From Acidobacteriota bacterium (lineage in GTDB: Bacteria > Acidobacteriota > Thermoanaerobaculia > Multivoradales > Multivoraceae): a stretch of 64,000 nt of DNA. Position 1 is the stretch's first letter, and every line of letters starts with the position of its first letter. The notes beneath the pieces are model-generated. The model did not search any database. It saw only the letters and a program-made list of their open reading frames with translations, and was not told the DNA's origin. Where the stretch lies: the NCBI GenBank assembly GCA_028875725.1, contig JAPPCR010000006.1:272134-336133 (forward strand). The letters run 5' to 3'. The position numbers were made by a program, and so were the translations under genes. This document shows, piece by piece, positions 45,642 through 49,995 of the stretch.

Positions 45642-46490
45642 GTGGCGACCGCCAGTTCTCCCGCAGGCTACGAGCATCCCGCGCGTCAGACCAAGTTGGC
45701 TTTGGTCGAGACCGCCCATCGGATCACCGAGTTTCGGTCGTTCGCGGACCTCGGGGGGTGCTGGGGAGTCAATGGCGCGTACTCGTTCCACGCGGCCGAA
45801 CTCTGCGGCCCGAGCCTCGAACGGGCCTTCATCCTCGACGGGAGCATCACGCCGCAAACCCGCGACCGAGCGGGCCAACACCCGAGGGTCCAACTCGTCG
45901 AGACGCTGCTCGGCTCCCGCGAGGCCCACGAGGCGGTAGGCCACGTGGGCGCGGTCATCATGTTCGACATCCTGCTCCACCAGGTCGATCCCGACTGGAA
46001 CGACTTCCTGCTCGCGTGGTCGCGCCAGACCGACACACTCGTGATCCACAACCAGAACTGGCTCAAGACGCCTCGGACGATCCGCTTCGTCGAGCGCGGT
46101 CTGGAGTGGTATCGCCGCAACGTCGTGGTGTGGGAGGACGAGTACGCGCCTTCGGTGGAGCGCTGGTTCGCACGCCACCACGAACGTGACTCGCGGGGTC
46201 GGCTGGAGCGTGACAGCTACGACTTCTGGCAGTGGGGCATCCGGCCGCTCGAACTCATCAACCTGCTGGCCCGTCACGGCTTCGAGTTAGTCCACATGGA
46301 CAGAGACGCGCTGCCGTTCGGCCCGCACTACCCCTGGATCGTCAACGACGGCATGGTGTTCCGGCGTGCTGCGTTCCCCGAGGCATCGCGACGGTCCCGC
46401 ATTCGTGCGACCGCGCGAGCGCTGTTGTCCAGACGCGCCGTGACCTCTCGCCCTACCGAGACCATGCGCTTGACTGAAGTAAGGACTTGA
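45642..46490 (+). CDS. hypothetical protein, possibly a class I SAM-dependent methyltransferase-like fold
   Basis: It is a long ORF with a GTG start and a DLGGCWGVNGAYSF motif resembling methyltransferase motif I. The start is uncertain. Confidence 0.55.
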   Translation: MATASSPAGYEHPARQTKLALVETAHRITEFRSFADLGGCWGVNGAYSFHAAELCGPSLERAFILDGSITPQTRDRAGQHPRVQLVETLLGSREAHEAVGHVGAVIMFDILLHQVDPDWNDFLLAWSRQTDTLVIHNQNWLKTPRTIRFVERGLEWYRRNVVVWEDEYAPSVERWFARHHERDSRGRLERDSYDFWQWGIRPLELINLLARHGFELVHMDRDALPFGPHYPWIVNDGMVFRRAAFPEASRRSRIRATARALLSRRAVTSRPTETMRLTEVRT

Positions 46491-46863
46491 AGCACTTCTT
46501 CGTTCCTGATGGCGGGATGTTGCGACCGCACAGCGGCGGTCGGCGCTACTGGTGCCCGTGACGGTGGGGCGAGTGCGTCACCGAGAGCCTCTCGGCTGGT
46601 TCGGCACTATGACCGCCGTGGTGTTCGGCAACCTGGTCGCGTGGGCGATCGTGACCGCTGTGGTGTTGATCCTCTGGATCGGCGCCTGTGGGCTGGCACT
46701 GTCCGAGGCCGGGCGGATCCTCGAAGGAGTAGAGAGCTTGCCGTAGCTAGCGCACCGCGTTGACGGGCACGGAATCCGTCTATGCCGGTACAGGTTGGAA
46801 GAGCCGTAGGGGTTCTTCCGCTAGAGTCGCGGAGACACTCAGTCCAGCAAAGGGAGACCCGCA

Positions 46864-46920
46864 ATGCGCCCCACCGAACACACCGACAAGAAACCAGAGG
46901 CTGCGGAACCAGCCGCGTGA
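46864..46920 (+). CDS. 18-codon upstream ORF (leader-peptide-like) coupled to the downstream gene
   Basis: An AAGGGAG RBS lies 7 nt upstream of the ATG. Its TGA stop overlaps the GTG start of the next ORF (GTGA). Confidence 0.25.
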   Translation: MRPTEHTDKKPEAAEPAA

Positions 46921-47636
46921 CCGTCACAGTGTGGGCCGTGATTGCTGCGGCCGGAGCGAGCGGGGGTTCCGCCGGTTGGACGACAGCGGTGCGCGAGTGG
47001 GGACCGGTGATCGCAGCGGCAACGATCGCTGTTGTGGCGGTTCTGACGTTTCGCAGATTGAAGAAGACCGACACCGAGGAGGCGCTAGCCGCTGCCAAGA
47101 AGGAAGGCGAGTGGAAGGGCCGCATGGACGCGTTCAAGAAGAACACGACCAAGAGGCTCAAGGGGATCGACAAGAAGGTCGGTGGCATCGACAAGAAGGT
47201 CGGGGTCGTCGAAGCAACGGTTCTCCAGATCGAAGCTTGGTTTCAGCGCGCAGGAATCTCCAAGGTGAATAGCCCGCTGACACTGAACGAACTAGCCGAG
47301 AGAGCGTGGCGTGAGTTGGACGCCGAGAACTGGCTCGAGCAACACGCGGTAGAAGTGTCGGAGAAGGTCACGGACATGGGCGAGTACGATGTACAGGAAT
47401 TCTGCTTCGCCCACATGGCGACTCTGGAGTTGGAGCCTGAGCGCCAACGGCGTCTACGGAATGTCGCCTACCACAACGGCCTGACCGAGTTTCAGGTTCG
47501 CCAGATCATGGCGATCAAGCTCCGCGATCAGCTCCTAGATCTTGCGGGCTTAGACCGCCCCACTGACGAGAGAGAGCTGCCAGCGCCCCTACCAGGCCCT
47601 TGGGATCAACCTCAACAGCGACGGGGCGACCAATGA
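46917..47636 (+). CDS. hypothetical membrane-anchored protein with KK(V)GGIDKKVG repeats and a C-terminal globular domain
   Basis: A hydrophobic N-terminal helix follows a GTG start. Its stop overlaps the start of the next gene. It lies in lower-GC DNA. Confidence 0.5.
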   Translation: MTVTVWAVIAAAGASGGSAGWTTAVREWGPVIAAATIAVVAVLTFRRLKKTDTEEALAAAKKEGEWKGRMDAFKKNTTKRLKGIDKKVGGIDKKVGVVEATVLQIEAWFQRAGISKVNSPLTLNELAERAWRELDAENWLEQHAVEVSEKVTDMGEYDVQEFCFAHMATLELEPERQRRLRNVAYHNGLTEFQVRQIMAIKLRDQLLDLAGLDRPTDERELPAPLPGPWDQPQQRRGDQ

Positions 47637-47977
47637 GAGTTCACTGGAACAAGTGTGGAGACGGGGTTTGGTGCGACCTGCTCAACCTCAATCTGAACCA
47701 CCCTCACTTCAACGACCTCAAAGGTGTCTACGTGATCTGGCGAGCCTCAGACGGCCGCGTCGTCCGCGTGGGCGCTGGCGAAGTCGCTGCCCGCTTGATG
47801 GTGCACCGAAGAGCAACTTGGGCGAAGGCGCACGGCGGACTGCTGGCAACATGGACGAGGATTGAAGACAGCCAACAAGCGGGAGTTGAGCGCTTCCTTG
47901 CCGACCAACTCAACCCACTTGAAGGGAGGGCGTACCCCGACGCCGTCCCGATTCCCGTCAATCTGCCTGGACAGTGA
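47633..47977 (+). CDS. small protein with GIY-YIG-like nuclease motif (114 aa)
   Basis: GVYVIW-x8-VVRVGAGEVAARLMVH matches the GIY-(x9-11)-YIG spacing, with the conserved Arg/His downstream. It has an ATGA overlap with the upstream gene. Confidence 0.4.
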   Translation: MRVHWNKCGDGVWCDLLNLNLNHPHFNDLKGVYVIWRASDGRVVRVGAGEVAARLMVHRRATWAKAHGGLLATWTRIEDSQQAGVERFLADQLNPLEGRAYPDAVPIPVNLPGQ

Positions 47978-48125
47978 GACTCGTAGCGTCTTGATCGCCG
48001 GCACGGCACGGCACGACGGCGACCGCCCCTAGCGGATCAGCGATACGGCGAACAGGATCATCGCGGCTCCGACCACGACCGTTCAGCGGTCTGTCATCGG
48101 ACGCCCAGTAAGGTAGGCCGTCTGC

Positions 48126-48154
48126 TTGACCTATCCGCAACACAGGCTGATAAT
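48126..48154 (+). promoter_or_regulatory. near-consensus sigma70 promoter (TTGACC -17 nt- GATAAT)
   Basis: The -35 hexamer is 5/6 to consensus and the -10 hexamer is 5/6. The spacing is 17 bp. It lies about 55 bp upstream of an RBS-supported small ORF. Confidence 0.45.
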
Positions 48155-48210
48155 GAGCGGGCCTGTCAACAACCGCAGGCACCGATGGGACGACCGAAGG
48201 AGACCAGCCG

Positions 48211-48405
48211 ATGAGCCGTCGTGAGGCGGCACCGCGGAACACGTCCGCCAACGCCGCGCGGCCGACCGAGCGCTCGCGGACCGTCAAGAAGGCCGAGCGA
48301 GAGGCCGAGTTTCCCGCCCGAATCGAGGAGGCGACGCCAGAGCAGATCGCGAAGGCGATGTTCGCTGCTACGGATCTCCGTCGCCAGAAAGCGTCTGACG
48401 GCTAG
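48211..48405 (+). CDS. small hypothetical protein (64 aa)
   Basis: An AAGGAG RBS lies 8 nt upstream of the ATG. It is the first ORF downstream of the predicted promoter. Confidence 0.4.
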   Translation: MSRREAAPRNTSANAARPTERSRTVKKAEREAEFPARIEEATPEQIAKAMFAATDLRRQKASDG

Positions 48406-48476
48406 AACTGCGATACGATGCTCGGTTTCCTCGGTCCCACCGAGGCGCTTCCAGTGACTCACTTCTGGAGGTCCAA

Positions 48477-48821
48477 ATGACGACCAACATTATCCATCTT
48501 GATGCCAATCTGGCGTGGCGAGTAGCTCGCTTGGACGAGCGGCACGAGTTCCGCTGGCTCGGCATCTGCGACGAACTGAAGCTGACAGTCGAGTCCTCGA
48601 CCTATCAGGAACTCCTGGAGGACATCGGGGACGCGCTTGACGCGGTGTTTCTGGACCTCTGCCTAGAAGGCCGCTTGAACGACTTCCTGACCCAGCAAGG
48701 ATGGAAGATCGTCGATGGTGGCCAGCACTGGCTGGAGACCGACCCGAACGAACTCTCGTTCGACCTCCCCTTCACCCCTCAGCAGATGTCAAGCCGTGAT
48801 CTCGAGGCGAGTATTCACTAA
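48477..48821 (+). CDS. HicB-like antitoxin domain protein (candidate)
   Basis: A GGAGG RBS lies 7 nt upstream. The block FRWLGICDELKLTVESSTYQELLEDIGDAL resembles the HicB N-terminal domain. It lies immediately 5' of, and overlaps, the HicA-like ORF. Confidence 0.45.
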   Translation: MTTNIIHLDANLAWRVARLDERHEFRWLGICDELKLTVESSTYQELLEDIGDALDAVFLDLCLEGRLNDFLTQQGWKIVDGGQHWLETDPNELSFDLPFTPQQMSSRDLEASIH

Positions 48822-49017
48822 CAAGGTTCGGTCTCTCGGTTACAAGCGGCGTCCCGAGAAGAAGCGGTCCTACCCGTACCGCCACCCTGAAACGCTGCAC
48901 ATCATCCCGATCCCGAAGAGGCAGCAGATCACCGAACCGTTCGTCCGTTCGGCGCTCCGACAAGCTGGACTTGAACCGGAGGAGATCGAGAAGTTCATCG
49001 GTGAAGCGACTGCCTGA
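48796..49017 (+). CDS. HicA-like toxin (mRNA interferase family) candidate
   Basis: YRHPE...ITEPFVRSALRQAGL parallels E. coli HicA RHP...IKEPLRKAILKQLGL. It has a GTG start inside the upstream ORF, and the GSxH motif is degenerate. Confidence 0.5.
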   Translation: MISRRVFTNKVRSLGYKRRPEKKRSYPYRHPETLHIIPIPKRQQITEPFVRSALRQAGLEPEEIEKFIGEATA

Positions 49018-49019
49018 CC

Positions 49020-49995
49020 TTCGCTGTGCGTTAGGCCACCAGATCCCGATAGCGCAGCCGCTTCCCCTCCATGCCGCGCCACGTTGCGGCCATGCGGTCG
49101 AGCGCCGGTAGGCGCCGCAGGTTGTGGCGTCCCGCCGCCGCTTCGACGTGGCGCCGCAGGTGCTTGCGGCTCCACCAGTGGTGGACGCCGATGTAGGAGC
49201 GCTTGAGGCCGCTCCAGCTCTCGATGCTCTGAGAATGGGTCTCGGGGTTGTCGCGGTTCACGTACTCGCCGCGGGAGTGCTTGACCGTCCGGTGGCGGTA
49301 GGACTCCATCAGATCCTCGTAGCCCCCGTGGTCATCGGTGTAGACGTTGCTGCCGTGGCGGACGTGGCGCTCGCCGAACCGCGTGAGCGTGTCGGCGTCT
49401 GGCGTGTCGATCACCGCCACCACCACCGGCCCGTCGCGCTGGATCGCGCCCACGACCGGCTTCTTGCCCCAGAAGTTCTCGCCCGAGTGGAGGAGTCGCT
49501 TGGCCCGGTGGCGGTTCCGCTGCTTCCCGCCCACGTAGGTCTCGTCGACCTCTACGGTGCCGCGTGGCTTCGCGGCCCCGACCGGGAACGCCTCGCGGAT
49601 CCGGTGGAGCATGTATCAGGCGGTCGGCTGCGACCCCGATGTACTCCGCGAGCCGACCGCTCGGGATGCCCTTCGGTTCTGAGTTGAAGAGGTAGATCGC
49701 GAGCGCCCACGCGCGGTAGCCGAGCCGACTGGACTGCATGATCGTGCCCTTGCGGACCGAGAAGTGCTTCCGGCAGGCCCGACAGCGGTACGGCATCGTC
49801 GGATGGTTGACGGCGCCGTACTCGCACGACCCGCAGTCTGGACACACGGGTCCGTCGGGCCACCGCTGCTCCTCGAACCAGCGCTCGGCCGCCGCGTCGT
49901 CAGGGAACTGTGCGACCAGTTCAACGACGCTCAGATTCGGCTTGCTGGCCCGTGACTCCGGTTGTTGGTTCATGGGTGTTCGAGTCGATCAGCGC
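49020..49995 (-). mobile_element. IS1595-family insertion sequence remnant (ends not defined)
   Basis: It contains the disrupted transposase gene. Terminal inverted repeats could not be recognised by eye. Confidence 0.55.
49031..49973 (-). pseudogene. IS1595-family (ISXO2-like DDE) transposase split by a frameshift near 49613-49650
   Basis: The N-terminal zinc-ribbon part (CPDCGS...YRCRACRKHFSV) and the C-terminal part (MLHRIREA...VEVDETYVGGK) lie in different frames. A TGA sits immediately before the second-frame ATG. Confidence 0.8.

What the first reader, a model, noticed from the sequence alone, without database searches (positions are those of the whole stretch)
46864..47977. uORF, membrane-anchored repeat protein and small GIY-YIG-like protein translationally coupled: candidate two-gene defence or abortive-infection-like module
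An 18-codon uORF with an AAGGGAG SD ends in a GTGA overlap with the start of a 239-aa N-terminally anchored protein containing KKVGGIDKKVG repeats. The stop of that protein overlaps (ATGA) the start of a 114-aa protein. The 114-aa protein's core GVYVIW-x8-VVRVGAG-x3-AARLMVH resembles the GIY-YIG endonuclease motif, with a conserved downstream Arg/His. This membrane-sensor-plus-nuclease gene arrangement inside a mobile island is reminiscent of phage-defence pairs. I do not recognise this combination as a described system. Alternatively, the uORF may mark the true start of the membrane-protein gene with a sequencing frameshift.
Basis: partly seen in the sequence, partly recalled or inferred. Interest (0 to 1): 0.65.

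Follow-up and report, generated by a model that had tools for sequence, protein, structure and literature searches.

The report
Membrane anchor plus mini GIY-YIG nuclease cassette
A small mobile gene cassette encodes a membrane-anchored protein and, translationally coupled to it, a very small nuclease of the GIY-YIG type; neither family is named in Pfam or NCBIfam and the pair is in no defence catalogue searched, and it most resembles a two-piece version of a recently described membrane-bound anti-phage nuclease, but its function is untested.

Summary
An 18-codon uORF (46864-46920), a 239-aa gene (46917-47636) and a 114-aa gene (47633-47977) follow each other with GTGA and ATGA overlaps.

The 239-aa protein consists of one strong transmembrane helix, a coiled coil, a confident five-helix bundle with no PDB relative, and a Pro-rich tail.

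The uORF is not a frameshift artefact. It recurs in five diverged loci with 18-19 codons and always ends on the anchor's start codon.

The whole cassette, including an upstream 45-aa membrane peptide gene, moves between unrelated, defence-type neighbourhoods. However, the pairing is confined to a narrow clade. Most nuclease relatives have other tightly linked partners: three other membrane-protein families, an aspartic protease and small proteins. Many anchor relatives stand alone.

My best reading, at about 0.4, is a split, membrane-tethered nuclease conflict module analogous to SNIPE. It is not a SNIPE member. The main rival is a toxin-antitoxin-like module.

The parts
46609..46746 (+). 45-aa hydrophobic (single transmembrane) peptide gene, MTAVVFGNLVAWAIVTAVVLILWIGACGLALSEAGRILEGVESLP. 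It is the leftmost conserved part of the cassette.
   Evidence: It is called as a gene in public assemblies. A closely similar 45-aa homologue (6 substitutions, by eye) lies directly upstream of the box in L100. DNA is conserved over window 46551-46746 against L100, L101 and L006. It has no Pfam or PHROG hit.
46809..46837 (+). Conserved leader box GGGGTTCTTCCGCTAGAGTCGC(G/A)GAGACA. Its role is unknown: promoter or operator, or the 5' arm of a hairpin that could mask the uORF's SD.
   Evidence: It is nearly invariant in the window, L013, L012 and L100 and partly conserved in L006. RNAalifold pairs GGGGUUCUUCC with the SD region, but there is no covariation and the pairing is broken in L006. No sigma-70-like promoter was found here and there is no Rfam match.
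46850..46856 (+). Shine-Dalgarno AAGGGAG, 7 nt upstream of the uORF's ATG.
   Evidence: Read directly from the sequence. GGAGACC is conserved in five loci.
46864..46920 (+). 18-codon uORF (MRPTEHTDKKPEAAEPAA). Its stop overlaps the anchor's start codon (GTGA).
   Evidence: Homologous uORFs of 19 codons occur in L013, L006, L012 and L100, all ending in NTGA at the anchor start. The peptide is weakly conserved (M-H/R ... [K/R][K/R]-P-E). Variability is flat across codon positions (11/12/12 of 19), so the conserved features are the ORF and its end point, not the peptide.
46917..47636 (+). 239-aa membrane anchor protein with a GTG start.
   Evidence: ORF seen. Six close homologues. The C-terminal domain defines a family of about 44 proteins of 160-200 aa with no Pfam domain, nearly all beginning with a hydrophobic N-terminal segment. 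AF2 model.
46998..47054 (+). Main transmembrane helix, residues 28-46, followed by RRLKK. This predicts N-terminus out and C-terminus in the cytoplasm.
   Evidence: Kyte-Doolittle maximum is 2.0 for residues 28-44. A weaker hydrophobic stretch covers residues 1-17. The orientation comes from the positive-inside rule and is an inference.
47073..47252 (+). Long helical, coiled-coil-like linker (residues about 53-112). It contains the 21-nt tandem duplication 47162-47212 (GIDKKVG twice).
   Evidence: AF2 helices 53-88 and 97-112 at low confidence. Tandem repeat found by TRF. The duplication is absent from other homologues.
47268..47552 (+). C-terminal five-helix bundle (residues about 118-212), with motifs SPLxL, YD[IV]QEF, AYxNGL and ELRDQLL.
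47553..47633 (+). Pro-rich C-terminal tail (LAGLDRPTDERELPAPLPGPWDQPQQRRGDQ). It is found only in anchors that are followed by the nuclease and is a candidate docking peptide.
   Evidence: The tail, with invariant P224, W229 and P232, is present in the window, P0052-55, P0058 (L006), P0059 and P0060. The nuclease gene was seen directly downstream in the window, L013, L006 and L100/L101. For P0052, P0054 and P0055 this is inferred from matching contig lengths. Tail-less homologues checked (L014, L016) have no nuclease. The docking role is an inference.
47633..47977 (+). 114-aa minimal GIY-YIG-fold nuclease. Its ATG overlaps the anchor's stop (ATGA).

Best explanation
Window 46551-47977 is a compact, horizontally mobile cassette. 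It encodes four products in order.

- A 45-aa membrane peptide.
- A short leader ORF.
- A bitopic inner-membrane protein. Its cytoplasmic part is a coiled coil, a five-helix bundle and a Pro-rich tail.
- A 114-aa stand-alone GIY-YIG nuclease with a complete catalytic set.

The last three ORFs are linked by 4-nt stop/start overlaps. I infer that they are translated by termination-reinitiation. The uORF's strong SD would load ribosomes for the anchor gene, which has no obvious SD of its own, and anchor and nuclease would be made together.

I propose that the anchor holds and controls the nuclease at the cytoplasmic face of the membrane, probably through its tail or bundle. DNA cleavage would then be confined to DNA entering through the envelope, or would be released after envelope perturbation. 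This would be a two-polypeptide analogue of the membrane-bound GIY-YIG defence nuclease SNIPE.

Shown here: the ORFs, the overlaps and their conservation, the nuclease fold and catalytic residues, the anchor architecture, the mobility of the cassette, and its defence-type neighbours. Inferred: physical interaction, nuclease activity, membrane topology and a defence role.
For: Nuclease.
- The AF2 model is confident (pLDDT 93.4).
- Foldseek's top nine hits are UvrC GIY-YIG domains.
- hhalign against I-TevI aligns Y33/Y6, R45/Y17, R54/R27 and H58/H31.
- Over 267 unique relatives, Y33 is kept in 98%, R54 in 96%, H58 in 93%, E86 in 98% and N110 in 89%.

Anchor.
- It has a strong transmembrane helix followed by RRLKK.
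- Its helical bundle has pLDDT above 90.

Coupling and cassette.
- The uORF and its overlap are conserved in five loci.
- The anchor/nuclease 4-nt overlap is conserved in L006, L013 and L100/L101.
- DNA similarity to L013 starts at the leader box and ends at the nuclease stop. Similarity to L100 starts at the 45-aa gene and ends at the nuclease stop. The flanks are unrelated.
- The C-terminal tail is present exactly in anchors followed by the nuclease. This prediction was confirmed on P0060/L100.

Recurrent link between membrane proteins and mini nucleases.
- 19 of 73 distinct nuclease groups have an adjacent same-strand membrane protein from four unrelated families: this anchor, K+-channel-like proteins (Pfam Ion_trans_2, 1.8e-12), a roughly 120-aa protein with two hydrophobic stretches (judged by eye) immediately downstream, and a 73-aa transmembrane/coiled-coil protein.
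- One relative, P0246, appears to have two hydrophobic N-terminal segments fused to the nuclease domain (judged by eye).
- A distant anchor homologue (L017-19) is followed by an overlapping 107-aa protein with GIY-/YIG-like motifs.

Context.
- Window: GC dip, IS1595 transposase and a HicAB-like pair.
- L006: N6_N4 methylase-HNH fusion, AAA_21/AAA_15 ATPase and a weak nucleotidyltransferase match (E 0.0034, below cut-off).
- L013: type I S-subunit-like protein and AAA_15/21 ATPase.

Precedent.
- SNIPE is a transmembrane-anchored GIY-YIG nuclease that cuts phage DNA during injection (bioRxiv 10.1101/2025.11.03.685801).
Against: - There is no experimental evidence and no test of interaction.
- The pairing is narrow. 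0 of 80 metagenomic nuclease loci carry an anchor-family ORF. The anchor homologues in L014 and L016 stand alone. L012 has the leader, uORF and anchor but a Cys-rich extension instead of the nuclease.
- Most nuclease relatives have non-membrane partners. These are an aspartic protease, a 50-aa hydrophilic protein and a convergent 90-aa protein. The family therefore does not need a membrane partner.
- Neither protein matches PADLOC's PD-Lambda-1 (SNIPE) or any other system model convincingly.
- There are no homologues in the phage or plasmid collections.
- The second motif Tyr is Arg in the window protein.
- The nuclease has no recognisable DNA-binding or specificity domain.
- The GIY-YIG nature of the 107-aa protein in L017 is only suggestive (Pfam E 0.047, hhalign E 0.044).
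Confidence: 0.4

Rival explanations
1. Toxin-antitoxin or abortive-infection-like module. The mini GIY-YIG nuclease is a toxin that is kept in check by whatever small gene is tightly linked to it. In this window that gene would be the membrane anchor. Growth arrest or death would follow when the partner is lost, degraded or perturbed.
For: 56 of 73 distinct nuclease groups have one tightly linked partner drawn from at least seven unrelated families. Many have gaps of -7 to +26 nt. This mix-and-match pattern, an upstream small partner and a toxin of about 115 aa are typical of type II toxin-antitoxin loci (established knowledge). A 50-aa hydrophilic upstream protein occurs in 11 groups, beside ImmA/Xre-like genes and a serine recombinase (these neighbours were named from sequence motifs, not scanned). 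The window cassette lies next to a HicAB-like pair.
Against: A 239-aa membrane-anchored antitoxin would be unusual. No partner shows a recognisable antitoxin DNA-binding fold. K+-channel-like proteins and aspartic proteases are not typical antitoxins. No GIY-YIG toxin family turned up among the listed titles of one literature search.
Confidence: 0.22
2. The nuclease is a selfish or restriction-type element. It could be a free-standing homing-endonuclease-like gene that has inserted behind various host genes, or the nuclease half of a very small restriction-modification system. In either case the anchor would be only the gene it happens to sit behind.
Against: The protein is only a catalytic core plus about 28 N-terminal residues. 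It has no DNA-recognition domain like those of I-TevI, the Seg enzymes or Eco29kI. No DNA methylase was found beside the window cassette; the 282-aa upstream ORF has no Pfam hit. Leader, anchor and nuclease move together as one unit. The anchor's tail co-varies with the presence of the nuclease.
Confidence: 0.12
3. The adjacency is fortuitous. The two are unrelated accessory genes, and the nuclease has a housekeeping or repair role like other small stand-alone GIY-YIG proteins.
For: Both families mostly occur without each other.
Against: The 4-nt overlap, gene order, leader and uORF are conserved across at least four distinct lineages down to 48% anchor identity. The tail correlates with the nuclease. 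The locations are mobile and defence-type rather than core-genome.
Confidence: 0.06
4. The uORF is an artefact: a sequencing frameshift has cut off the true N-terminus of the membrane protein.
For: The anchor's reading frame happens to be open upstream to ATG 46782 in this window.
Against: The same separate, out-of-frame uORF ending on the anchor start occurs in five diverged loci from different samples. In L013 the anchor frame has no start upstream of its ATG. The upstream extension has no counterpart in any homologue. The identical nuclease gene sits on 8 contigs, and two loci from different samples read in full show the same gene calls.
Confidence: 0.02

Closest known systems
SNIPE / PD-lambda-1 (membrane-bound GIY-YIG defence nuclease; Saxton et al., bioRxiv 10.1101/2025.11.03.685801)
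   Same: Both combine an N-terminal transmembrane anchor, an elongated helical region, a cytoplasmic globular domain and a GIY-YIG nuclease. The predicted topology is the same, N-terminus out and the rest cytoplasmic. Both have variable N-terminal anchors; SNIPE homologues resemble PspB, FtsB or PilO, and the window anchor gives a weak PspM/Rv2743c-like hit.
   Different: SNIPE is one polypeptide, whereas here anchor and nuclease are separate, translationally coupled proteins. SNIPE's middle domain is DUF4041; the five-helix bundle here shows no DUF4041 match in 45 members and no PDB relative. The nuclease here is a distinct mini family: Pfam T5orf172, a family I recall (own knowledge, not tested here) as belonging with GIY-YIG, matched in only 1 of 49 members at 7e-4. 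There is no PADLOC PD-Lambda-1 hit. Function is untested.
GIY-YIG nuclease superfamily (UvrC N-terminal domain, I-TevI, T4 EndoII, R.Eco29kI, R.Hpy188I, PD-T4-3)
   Different: The window protein is below all Pfam and NCBIfam thresholds. It is only 114 aa with no accessory DNA-binding domain. It has a characteristic N-terminal W-x2-C-x5-C segment and a C-terminal PIPVNLP motif. The YIG Tyr is Arg in the window protein.
PADLOC candidate PDC-S14 (uncharacterised single-gene 'phage defence candidate')
   Same: Up to 13 of 49 relatives of the nuclease give weak hits to PDC-S14 models (8, 3, 1 and 1 across four models, which may overlap), best E 6e-5. This hints at remote relatedness to a defence-island-associated family.
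   Different: The window protein itself has no PDC-S14 hit at E <= 1. PDC-S14 has no described mechanism. It appeared in only three papers, and from their titles these are genome or phage-resistance surveys; I did not open them.
Type II toxin-antitoxin operons and translationally coupled leader ORFs
   Same: The genes are small and overlap by 4 nt. The nuclease family combines with many partner families. The cassettes are mobile. The uORF with a strong SD ending on the next start codon is the classical arrangement for termination-reinitiation coupling (established knowledge).
   Different: No antitoxin-type DNA-binding domain is present. The partner is a 239-aa membrane protein. Toxicity and neutralisation are untested.

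Membership tests
GIY-YIG nuclease superfamily | Core fold: a three-stranded sheet flanked by helices | tested here: met
GIY-YIG nuclease superfamily | Tyr of the 'GIY' half-motif | tested here: met
   G31-V32-Y33. Tyr is kept in 263 of 267 unique relatives.
GIY-YIG nuclease superfamily | [quoted passage not shown] | tested here: not met
   The window protein has R45 (VRVGAG). Across the family the position is R 48%, Y 44% and K 5%. A basic residue at this position is known in active R.Hpy188I (K73; PMC2630997), so this does not exclude activity.
GIY-YIG nuclease superfamily | Conserved Arg and His/Tyr on the first helix, metal-binding Glu, and C-terminal Asn | tested here: met
   R54 is kept in 96%, H58 in 93%, E86 in 98% and N110 in 89% of relatives. 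R54 aligns with I-TevI R27 and H58 with H31. The E86 and N110 equivalence is inferred from spacing and fold, not from a residue-level superposition.
GIY-YIG nuclease superfamily | Match to Pfam PF01541, or to T5orf172 (a family I take to be related to GIY-YIG from my own knowledge), above threshold | tested here: not met
   The window protein has no hit at E <= 1. Among 49 relatives, one hits T5orf172 at 7e-4 and one hits GIY-YIG at 0.34.
SNIPE / PD-lambda-1 | Single polypeptide carrying anchor, DUF4041 and nuclease | tested here: not met
   There are two separate ORFs with an ATGA overlap, and they remain separate in all homologous loci.
SNIPE / PD-lambda-1 | DUF4041 middle domain | tested here: not met
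SNIPE / PD-lambda-1 | N-terminal membrane anchor with cytoplasmic nuclease | tested here: inconclusive
   There is a strong hydrophobic helix at residues 28-46 followed by RRLKK. The nuclease has no hydrophobic segment. Topology and tethering are inferred, not measured.
SNIPE / PD-lambda-1 | Match to a PADLOC PD-Lambda-1 model | tested here: not met
   No PD-Lambda-1 model appears in the PADLOC hit lists for either window protein or for 49 nuclease relatives at E <= 1. That PADLOC v2.0.0 contains a PD-Lambda-1 model is my own recollection, not checked here.
SNIPE / PD-lambda-1 | Protects against phage by cutting DNA during injection | not testable with these tools
   This needs plaque assays and DNA-injection assays.
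Type II restriction enzyme of GIY-YIG type (Eco29kI/Hpy188I-like) | Adjacent cognate DNA methyltransferase | tested here: not met
   No DNA methylase domain was found in the 45642-48821 ORFs that were scanned. Methylase-like ORFs occur near only 5 of about 90 family loci.
Homing endonuclease (I-TevI/Seg-like) | C-terminal DNA-binding or targeting domain | tested here: not met
   The protein ends 4 residues after N110. Its total length is 114 aa.
Type II toxin-antitoxin pair | Small upstream antitoxin with a DNA-binding fold that neutralises the downstream toxin | tested here: inconclusive
   The gene arrangement fits. No HTH, RHH or AbrB-type domain was detected in the anchor. Neutralisation cannot be tested here.
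Translationally coupled leader ORF | Own SD, conserved ORF, and a stop codon overlapping the downstream start | tested here: met
   AAGGGAG lies 7 nt before the ATG. The ORF has 18-19 codons and ends in NTGA at the anchor start in 5 loci. That coupling actually takes place is inferred.

The most novel reading that the evidence does not exclude
The unnamed mini GIY-YIG family, with at least 1,469 clusters at 50% identity, may be a plug-in nuclease effector. It would be controlled by interchangeable, tightly linked partners, many of them membrane proteins: this anchor, K+-channel-like proteins, roughly 120-aa proteins with two hydrophobic stretches, and transmembrane/coiled-coil peptides. The window cassette would then be the first recognised example of a split, membrane-tethered nuclease immunity system. 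It would be mechanistically parallel to SNIPE but evolutionarily independent of it. The conserved uORF and leader would set expression and stoichiometry.
Probability: 0.25. Interest if true: 0.75.

Novelty: new variant of a known kind. Interest (0 to 1): 0.55.

Why it matters
Membrane-localised nucleases that tell foreign DNA from self by location rather than by sequence were described only recently (SNIPE). If this cassette works the same way, three things would follow.

- The principle has arisen more than once.
- It can be built from two separate proteins.
- It exists in poorly studied soil and sediment phyla. The relative L006 comes from a Thermoanaerobaculia MAG.

Whatever the mechanism, the work defines two protein families that have no Pfam, NCBIfam or PHROG model. 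One is a large mini GIY-YIG family, among the smallest apparently complete GIY-YIG enzymes. The other is a membrane-anchored five-helix-bundle family. The nuclease family's modular partner repertoire is also catalogued. This gives concrete targets for defence-system screens and for studying minimal nuclease cores.

Tried and rejected
**Searches that found no match to a known family**
- Pfam, NCBIfam, PADLOC and PHROG scans of both window proteins gave no significant family.
- The weak PADLOC hit RT_UG4 (E 2.8e-4) occurred in only 1 of 49 relatives. I treat it as chance.
- A profile search of PDB sequences gave only a spurious gp41 coiled-coil match.
- An Rfam scan of 46400-48600 found nothing meaningful.

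**Searches for relatives elsewhere**
- tblastn of the nuclease against plasmids and phages, and of an anchor relative against plasmids, gave no match.
- Anchor family against viral contigs: none.
- Anchor family against JGI metagenomes: 52 pattern matches, none a relative.
With the single protein it found only one locus, L006.

**Structural and regulatory tests that were inconclusive**
- A leader hairpin that masks the SD is predicted but has no covariation support. I leave it open.
- No sigma-70-like promoter or terminator was found inside the cassette.

**Ideas rejected**
- The uORF as a frameshift artefact, for the reasons given under the rivals.
- 'Repeat protein' as a defining trait, because the duplication is lineage-specific.
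- A restriction-modification reading for this window, because no DNA methylase is present.

**Test that stayed weak**
- Whether the 107-aa protein after the distant anchor homologue in L017 is GIY-YIG. Pfam E 0.047, hhalign E 0.044, and no PDB sequence hit.
Full report
**1. Observation**

- An AAGGGAG Shine-Dalgarno lies at 46850-46856.
- An 18-codon uORF runs from 46864 to 46920.
- A GTG at 46917 overlaps the uORF stop (GTGA) and opens a 239-aa ORF ending at 47636.
- An ATG at 47633 overlaps that stop (ATGA) and opens a 114-aa ORF ending at 47977.

Public assemblies of the identical sequence call the same 239-aa and 114-aa genes.

There are two corrections.
- The motif spacing is GVYVIW-x6-VVRVGAG-x2-AARLMVH.
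- The 'KKVGGIDKKVG repeats' are one 21-nt tandem duplication (47162-47212). Only the closest relative shares it.

**2. The 114-aa protein**

No Pfam, NCBIfam or PHROG model matches it. It does have about 50 homologues of about 115 aa.

Their alignment has these invariant or nearly invariant positions:
- G31-V32-Y33
- G47
- R54
- H58
- T73-W74
- E86-R87
- N110

Structural evidence:
- An AlphaFold2 model built on that alignment is confident (pLDDT 93.4, pTM 0.87).
- Foldseek's nine best PDB hits are UvrC GIY-YIG domains.

A profile-sequence alignment to I-TevI pairs Y33 with Y6, R45 with Y17, R54 with R27 and H58 with H31.

[quoted passage not shown] Across the family the position is R 48%, Y 44% and K 5%. 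A Lys at this position is known in active R.Hpy188I (PMC2630997).

An exhaustive profile search found 1,469 cluster representatives at E <= 1e-3, of which 1,058 are at <= 1e-10. Nearly all are 110-130 aa. This is therefore a large family of minimal, apparently catalytically complete GIY-YIG proteins that has no Pfam, NCBIfam or PHROG model.

**3. The 239-aa protein**

- It has one strong hydrophobic helix (residues 28-46) followed by RRLKK, and a weaker hydrophobic N-terminus.
- Long low-confidence helices follow. Then comes a five-helix bundle (about residues 118-212) modelled at pLDDT 90-97.
- Only six close homologues exist. A profile of the C-terminal domain retrieved about 44 proteins of 160-200 aa.
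- Nearly all share the same plan: a hydrophobic N-terminal segment, a W-x-G-x-V-D/N motif, a short helical linker, then SPLxLT, YDIQEF, AYxNGL and ELRDQLL.
- No Pfam family, and specifically not DUF4041, recurs among them.

**4. The uORF and leader**

The same arrangement is present in four other diverged loci: L013, L006, L012 and L100.
- Each has a conserved 25-29-nt box, GGGGTTCTTCCGCTAGAGTCGCAGAGACA.
- Each has a GGAGACC Shine-Dalgarno.
- Each has an ATG-initiated ORF of 19 codons that ends in NTGA at the anchor's start.

The peptide is weakly conserved (M-H/R ... [K/R][K/R]-P-E). Substitutions are spread evenly over the three codon positions. What is conserved is therefore the act of translating up to the anchor's start, which fits termination-reinitiation coupling.

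In L013 the anchor's frame has no start upstream of its ATG. The frameshift alternative is therefore rejected.

The box could pair with the SD, but nothing supports this beyond complementarity.

**5. The cassette**

- Similarity to L013 begins at the box and ends at the nuclease stop (window 46811-47973).
- Similarity to L100/L101 covers 46551-46746, 46803-46901 and 47495-47973. The first segment is a 45-aa membrane peptide gene.
- In both comparisons the flanks are unrelated.
- The unit therefore consists of the 45-aa peptide (in some loci), the leader with its uORF, the anchor and the nuclease. It is about 1.4 kb and moves as a block.

Neighbourhoods:
- In the window the cassette lies in a GC dip (0.60 against 0.69).
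- It is beside an IS1595 transposase split into two ORFs and a HicB/HicA-like pair.
- In L006 it lies beside a DNA methylase-HNH fusion, an AAA_21/AAA_15 ATPase and a weak nucleotidyltransferase match (E 0.0034, below cut-off).
- In L013 it lies beside a type I S-subunit-like protein and an AAA_15/21 ATPase.
- L006 comes from a Thermoanaerobaculia MAG.

**6. Is the pair conserved?**

Within the clade, yes. The nuclease follows the anchor with a 4-nt overlap in the window, L013, L006 and L100/L101. Anchor identity there falls to about 48%.

The Pro-rich tail of the anchor, with invariant P224, W229 and P232, occurs only in anchors that have the nuclease downstream. I used this as a prediction for P0060 and it held.

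Outside the clade, no.
- None of 80 metagenomic loci carrying a nuclease relative has an anchor-family ORF.
- Tail-less anchor homologues in L014 and L016 stand alone.
- L012 carries a Cys-rich extension instead of the nuclease.

**7. What the wider family shows**

The 94 nuclease loci collapse to 73 groups at 90% identity. Of these, 56 have one tightly linked partner.

| Partner | Groups |
|---|---|
| This anchor | 4 |
| K+-channel-like membrane protein upstream (Pfam Ion_trans_2, 1.8e-12) | 4 |
| Roughly 120-aa protein with two hydrophobic stretches (by eye), 9-41 nt downstream | 10 |
| 73-aa transmembrane/coiled-coil protein upstream | 1 |
| Retropepsin-like aspartic protease upstream, gap -7 to +24 nt | 8 |
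| 50-aa hydrophilic protein upstream (neighbours look like ImmA/Xre and a serine recombinase by motif, not scanned) | 11 |
| Convergent 90-aa 'EPPWAWYQY' protein overlapping the nuclease's 3' end | 18 |

- About a quarter of the groups therefore pair with a membrane protein from one of four unrelated families.
- One relative appears to have two hydrophobic N-terminal segments fused to the nuclease domain (P0246, judged by eye).
- Conversely, a distant anchor homologue (L017-19) is followed by an overlapping 107-aa protein with GNYIF/LYIGET motifs. Its GIY-YIG assignment is only suggestive.
- Other family members sit in integrative elements, plasmids and prophage-like regions.

**8. Mechanism**

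The best-supported reading is a membrane-tethered nuclease module.
- The uORF loads ribosomes.
- Anchor and nuclease are made together.
- The anchor's cytoplasmic bundle or tail holds or gates the nuclease at the membrane.

This parallels SNIPE. SNIPE is a single protein with an N-terminal transmembrane segment, DUF4041 and a C-terminal GIY-YIG domain, and it cuts phage DNA during injection (bioRxiv 10.1101/2025.11.03.685801).

The cassette is not a SNIPE member.
- It is split into two proteins.
- It lacks DUF4041.
- It has no PD-Lambda-1 hit.

Up to 13 of 49 nuclease relatives weakly hit the uncharacterised PADLOC candidate PDC-S14, but the window protein does not.

The main rival is a toxin-antitoxin/Abi-like module. 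The mix-and-match partner pattern favours that reading. The nature of the partners argues against a classical type II system. The selfish-endonuclease, restriction-modification, chance-adjacency and frameshift readings are less likely, for the reasons listed under the rivals.

**9. Verdict**

- The GIY-YIG call is right.
- The 'defence pair' idea is plausible but unproven, and the co-occurrence is clade-limited.
- I rate it a new variant of a known kind, a membrane-associated GIY-YIG nuclease.
- Interest is moderate to high, because both families lack a Pfam, NCBIfam or PHROG model and the nuclease family is large and modular.

Noticed in passing
window 48477-49017 (+): A 114-aa ORF (48477-48821) is overlapped by an ORF whose C-terminal part weakly matches the HicA toxin (PF07927, E 0.032). 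It looks like a reversed-order HicB/HicA pair directly downstream of the cassette. The HicB assignment is by eye only.
   Followed up: partly
window 49031-49973 (-): An IS1595-family transposase is split into two overlapping ORFs. The Zn-ribbon N-terminal part is at 49332-49973 and the DDE part at 49031-49612. This is probably a frameshifted or programmed-frameshift gene. IS1595-like genes also lie near nuclease relatives in L068, L094 and L099.
   Followed up: partly
window 46747-46802: About 56 nt lie between the 45-aa gene's stop and the leader box. They are absent from L100, where the box follows the stop directly. The motif GCCGTAG occurs at both ends of this stretch, so it may be a small insertion or duplication.
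   Followed up: no
window 45642-46490 (+): A 282-aa ORF has an FADLGGCWG motif that resembles SAM-methyltransferase motif I, but it has no Pfam, NCBIfam or PADLOC hit. It is not conserved next to the cassette in L100 or L013.
   Followed up: partly
L007-L011, L064, L068, L076 and others (e.g. L008 6218-6493, minus strand): In 18 of 73 nuclease groups, a conserved convergent gene of about 90 aa (REWA..GSEPPWAWYQYMKLIE) overlaps the last 125 nt or so of the nuclease gene on the opposite strand. It has no known family. This suggests antisense or overlapping-gene regulation.
   Followed up: partly
L046, L055, L060, L063, L065, L066, L069-L074, L077, L078, L080, L091, L092: A 50-aa hydrophilic protein (MSKESKTFPLGRDSKTGEFIPVREAERRPNTTTVERIPKPG) lies 8-26 nt (1 nt with L078's longer ORF call) upstream of the nuclease. 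It is preceded by ORFs that look like an ImmA-type (HEAGH) protein and an Xre-type protein, and faces an ORF that looks like a large serine recombinase. These three were named from sequence motifs, not scanned. This is a prophage lysogeny-module position. No Pfam or PHROG hit.
   Followed up: partly
L035, L037-L039, L042, L043, L045, L047-L049, L052, L057: A three-gene string recurs: a 105-aa protein (KGKYVALDFE...YWIGDT), a 141-aa retropepsin-like aspartic protease (DTGF motif; Pfam matches E 2e-4 to 5e-4, just below the gathering cut-offs), and the mini GIY-YIG. Gaps between the last two are -7 to +24 nt.
   Followed up: partly
L021, L022, L026, L029: K+-channel-like proteins of about 320 aa (selectivity-filter-like SSLGYGD, Pfam Ion_trans_2) carry a long cytoplasmic helical tail. 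They lie directly upstream of the nuclease, overlapping it in L022. In L022 an ORF that looks like a DNA methylase by sequence (not scanned) precedes them.
   Followed up: partly
L023, L025, L027, L031, L033, L036, L040, L041, L044, L054, L058, L061: A protein of about 120 aa with what look like two hydrophobic stretches (PEIVTYRIPRIEVYQVTDDEL...IRSR) lies 9-41 nt downstream of the nuclease on the same strand.
   Followed up: partly
L017/L018/L019 5001-5844: A distant anchor homologue (177 aa) is followed by an overlapping 107-aa protein with GNYIF...LYIGET...H...E motifs, a different GIY-YIG-like mini protein. The pair lies between a PAAR-like toxin gene cluster and an ADP-ribosylglycohydrolase gene.
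   Followed up: partly
L012 6001-6903 (P0057; also P0056): These anchor homologues keep the leader box and uORF. They replace the Pro-rich tail and nuclease with a Cys-rich C-terminal extension (CPVCG...WNCTSGCG). The next gene encodes a hydrophobic protein.
   Followed up: no
window 46809-46860: The 5' half of the leader box (GGGGUUCUUCC) is complementary to the uORF's SD region (GGGAGACCC). This could be a hairpin that sequesters the SD. There is no covariation and it is not conserved in L006.
   Followed up: partly
window 47633-47977 (protein residues 31-81): The protein gives a weak PADLOC hit to the reverse-transcriptase model RT_UG4 (E 2.8e-4, profile positions 62-112). Only 1 of 49 family members shows it, so it is probably chance.
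   Followed up: yes
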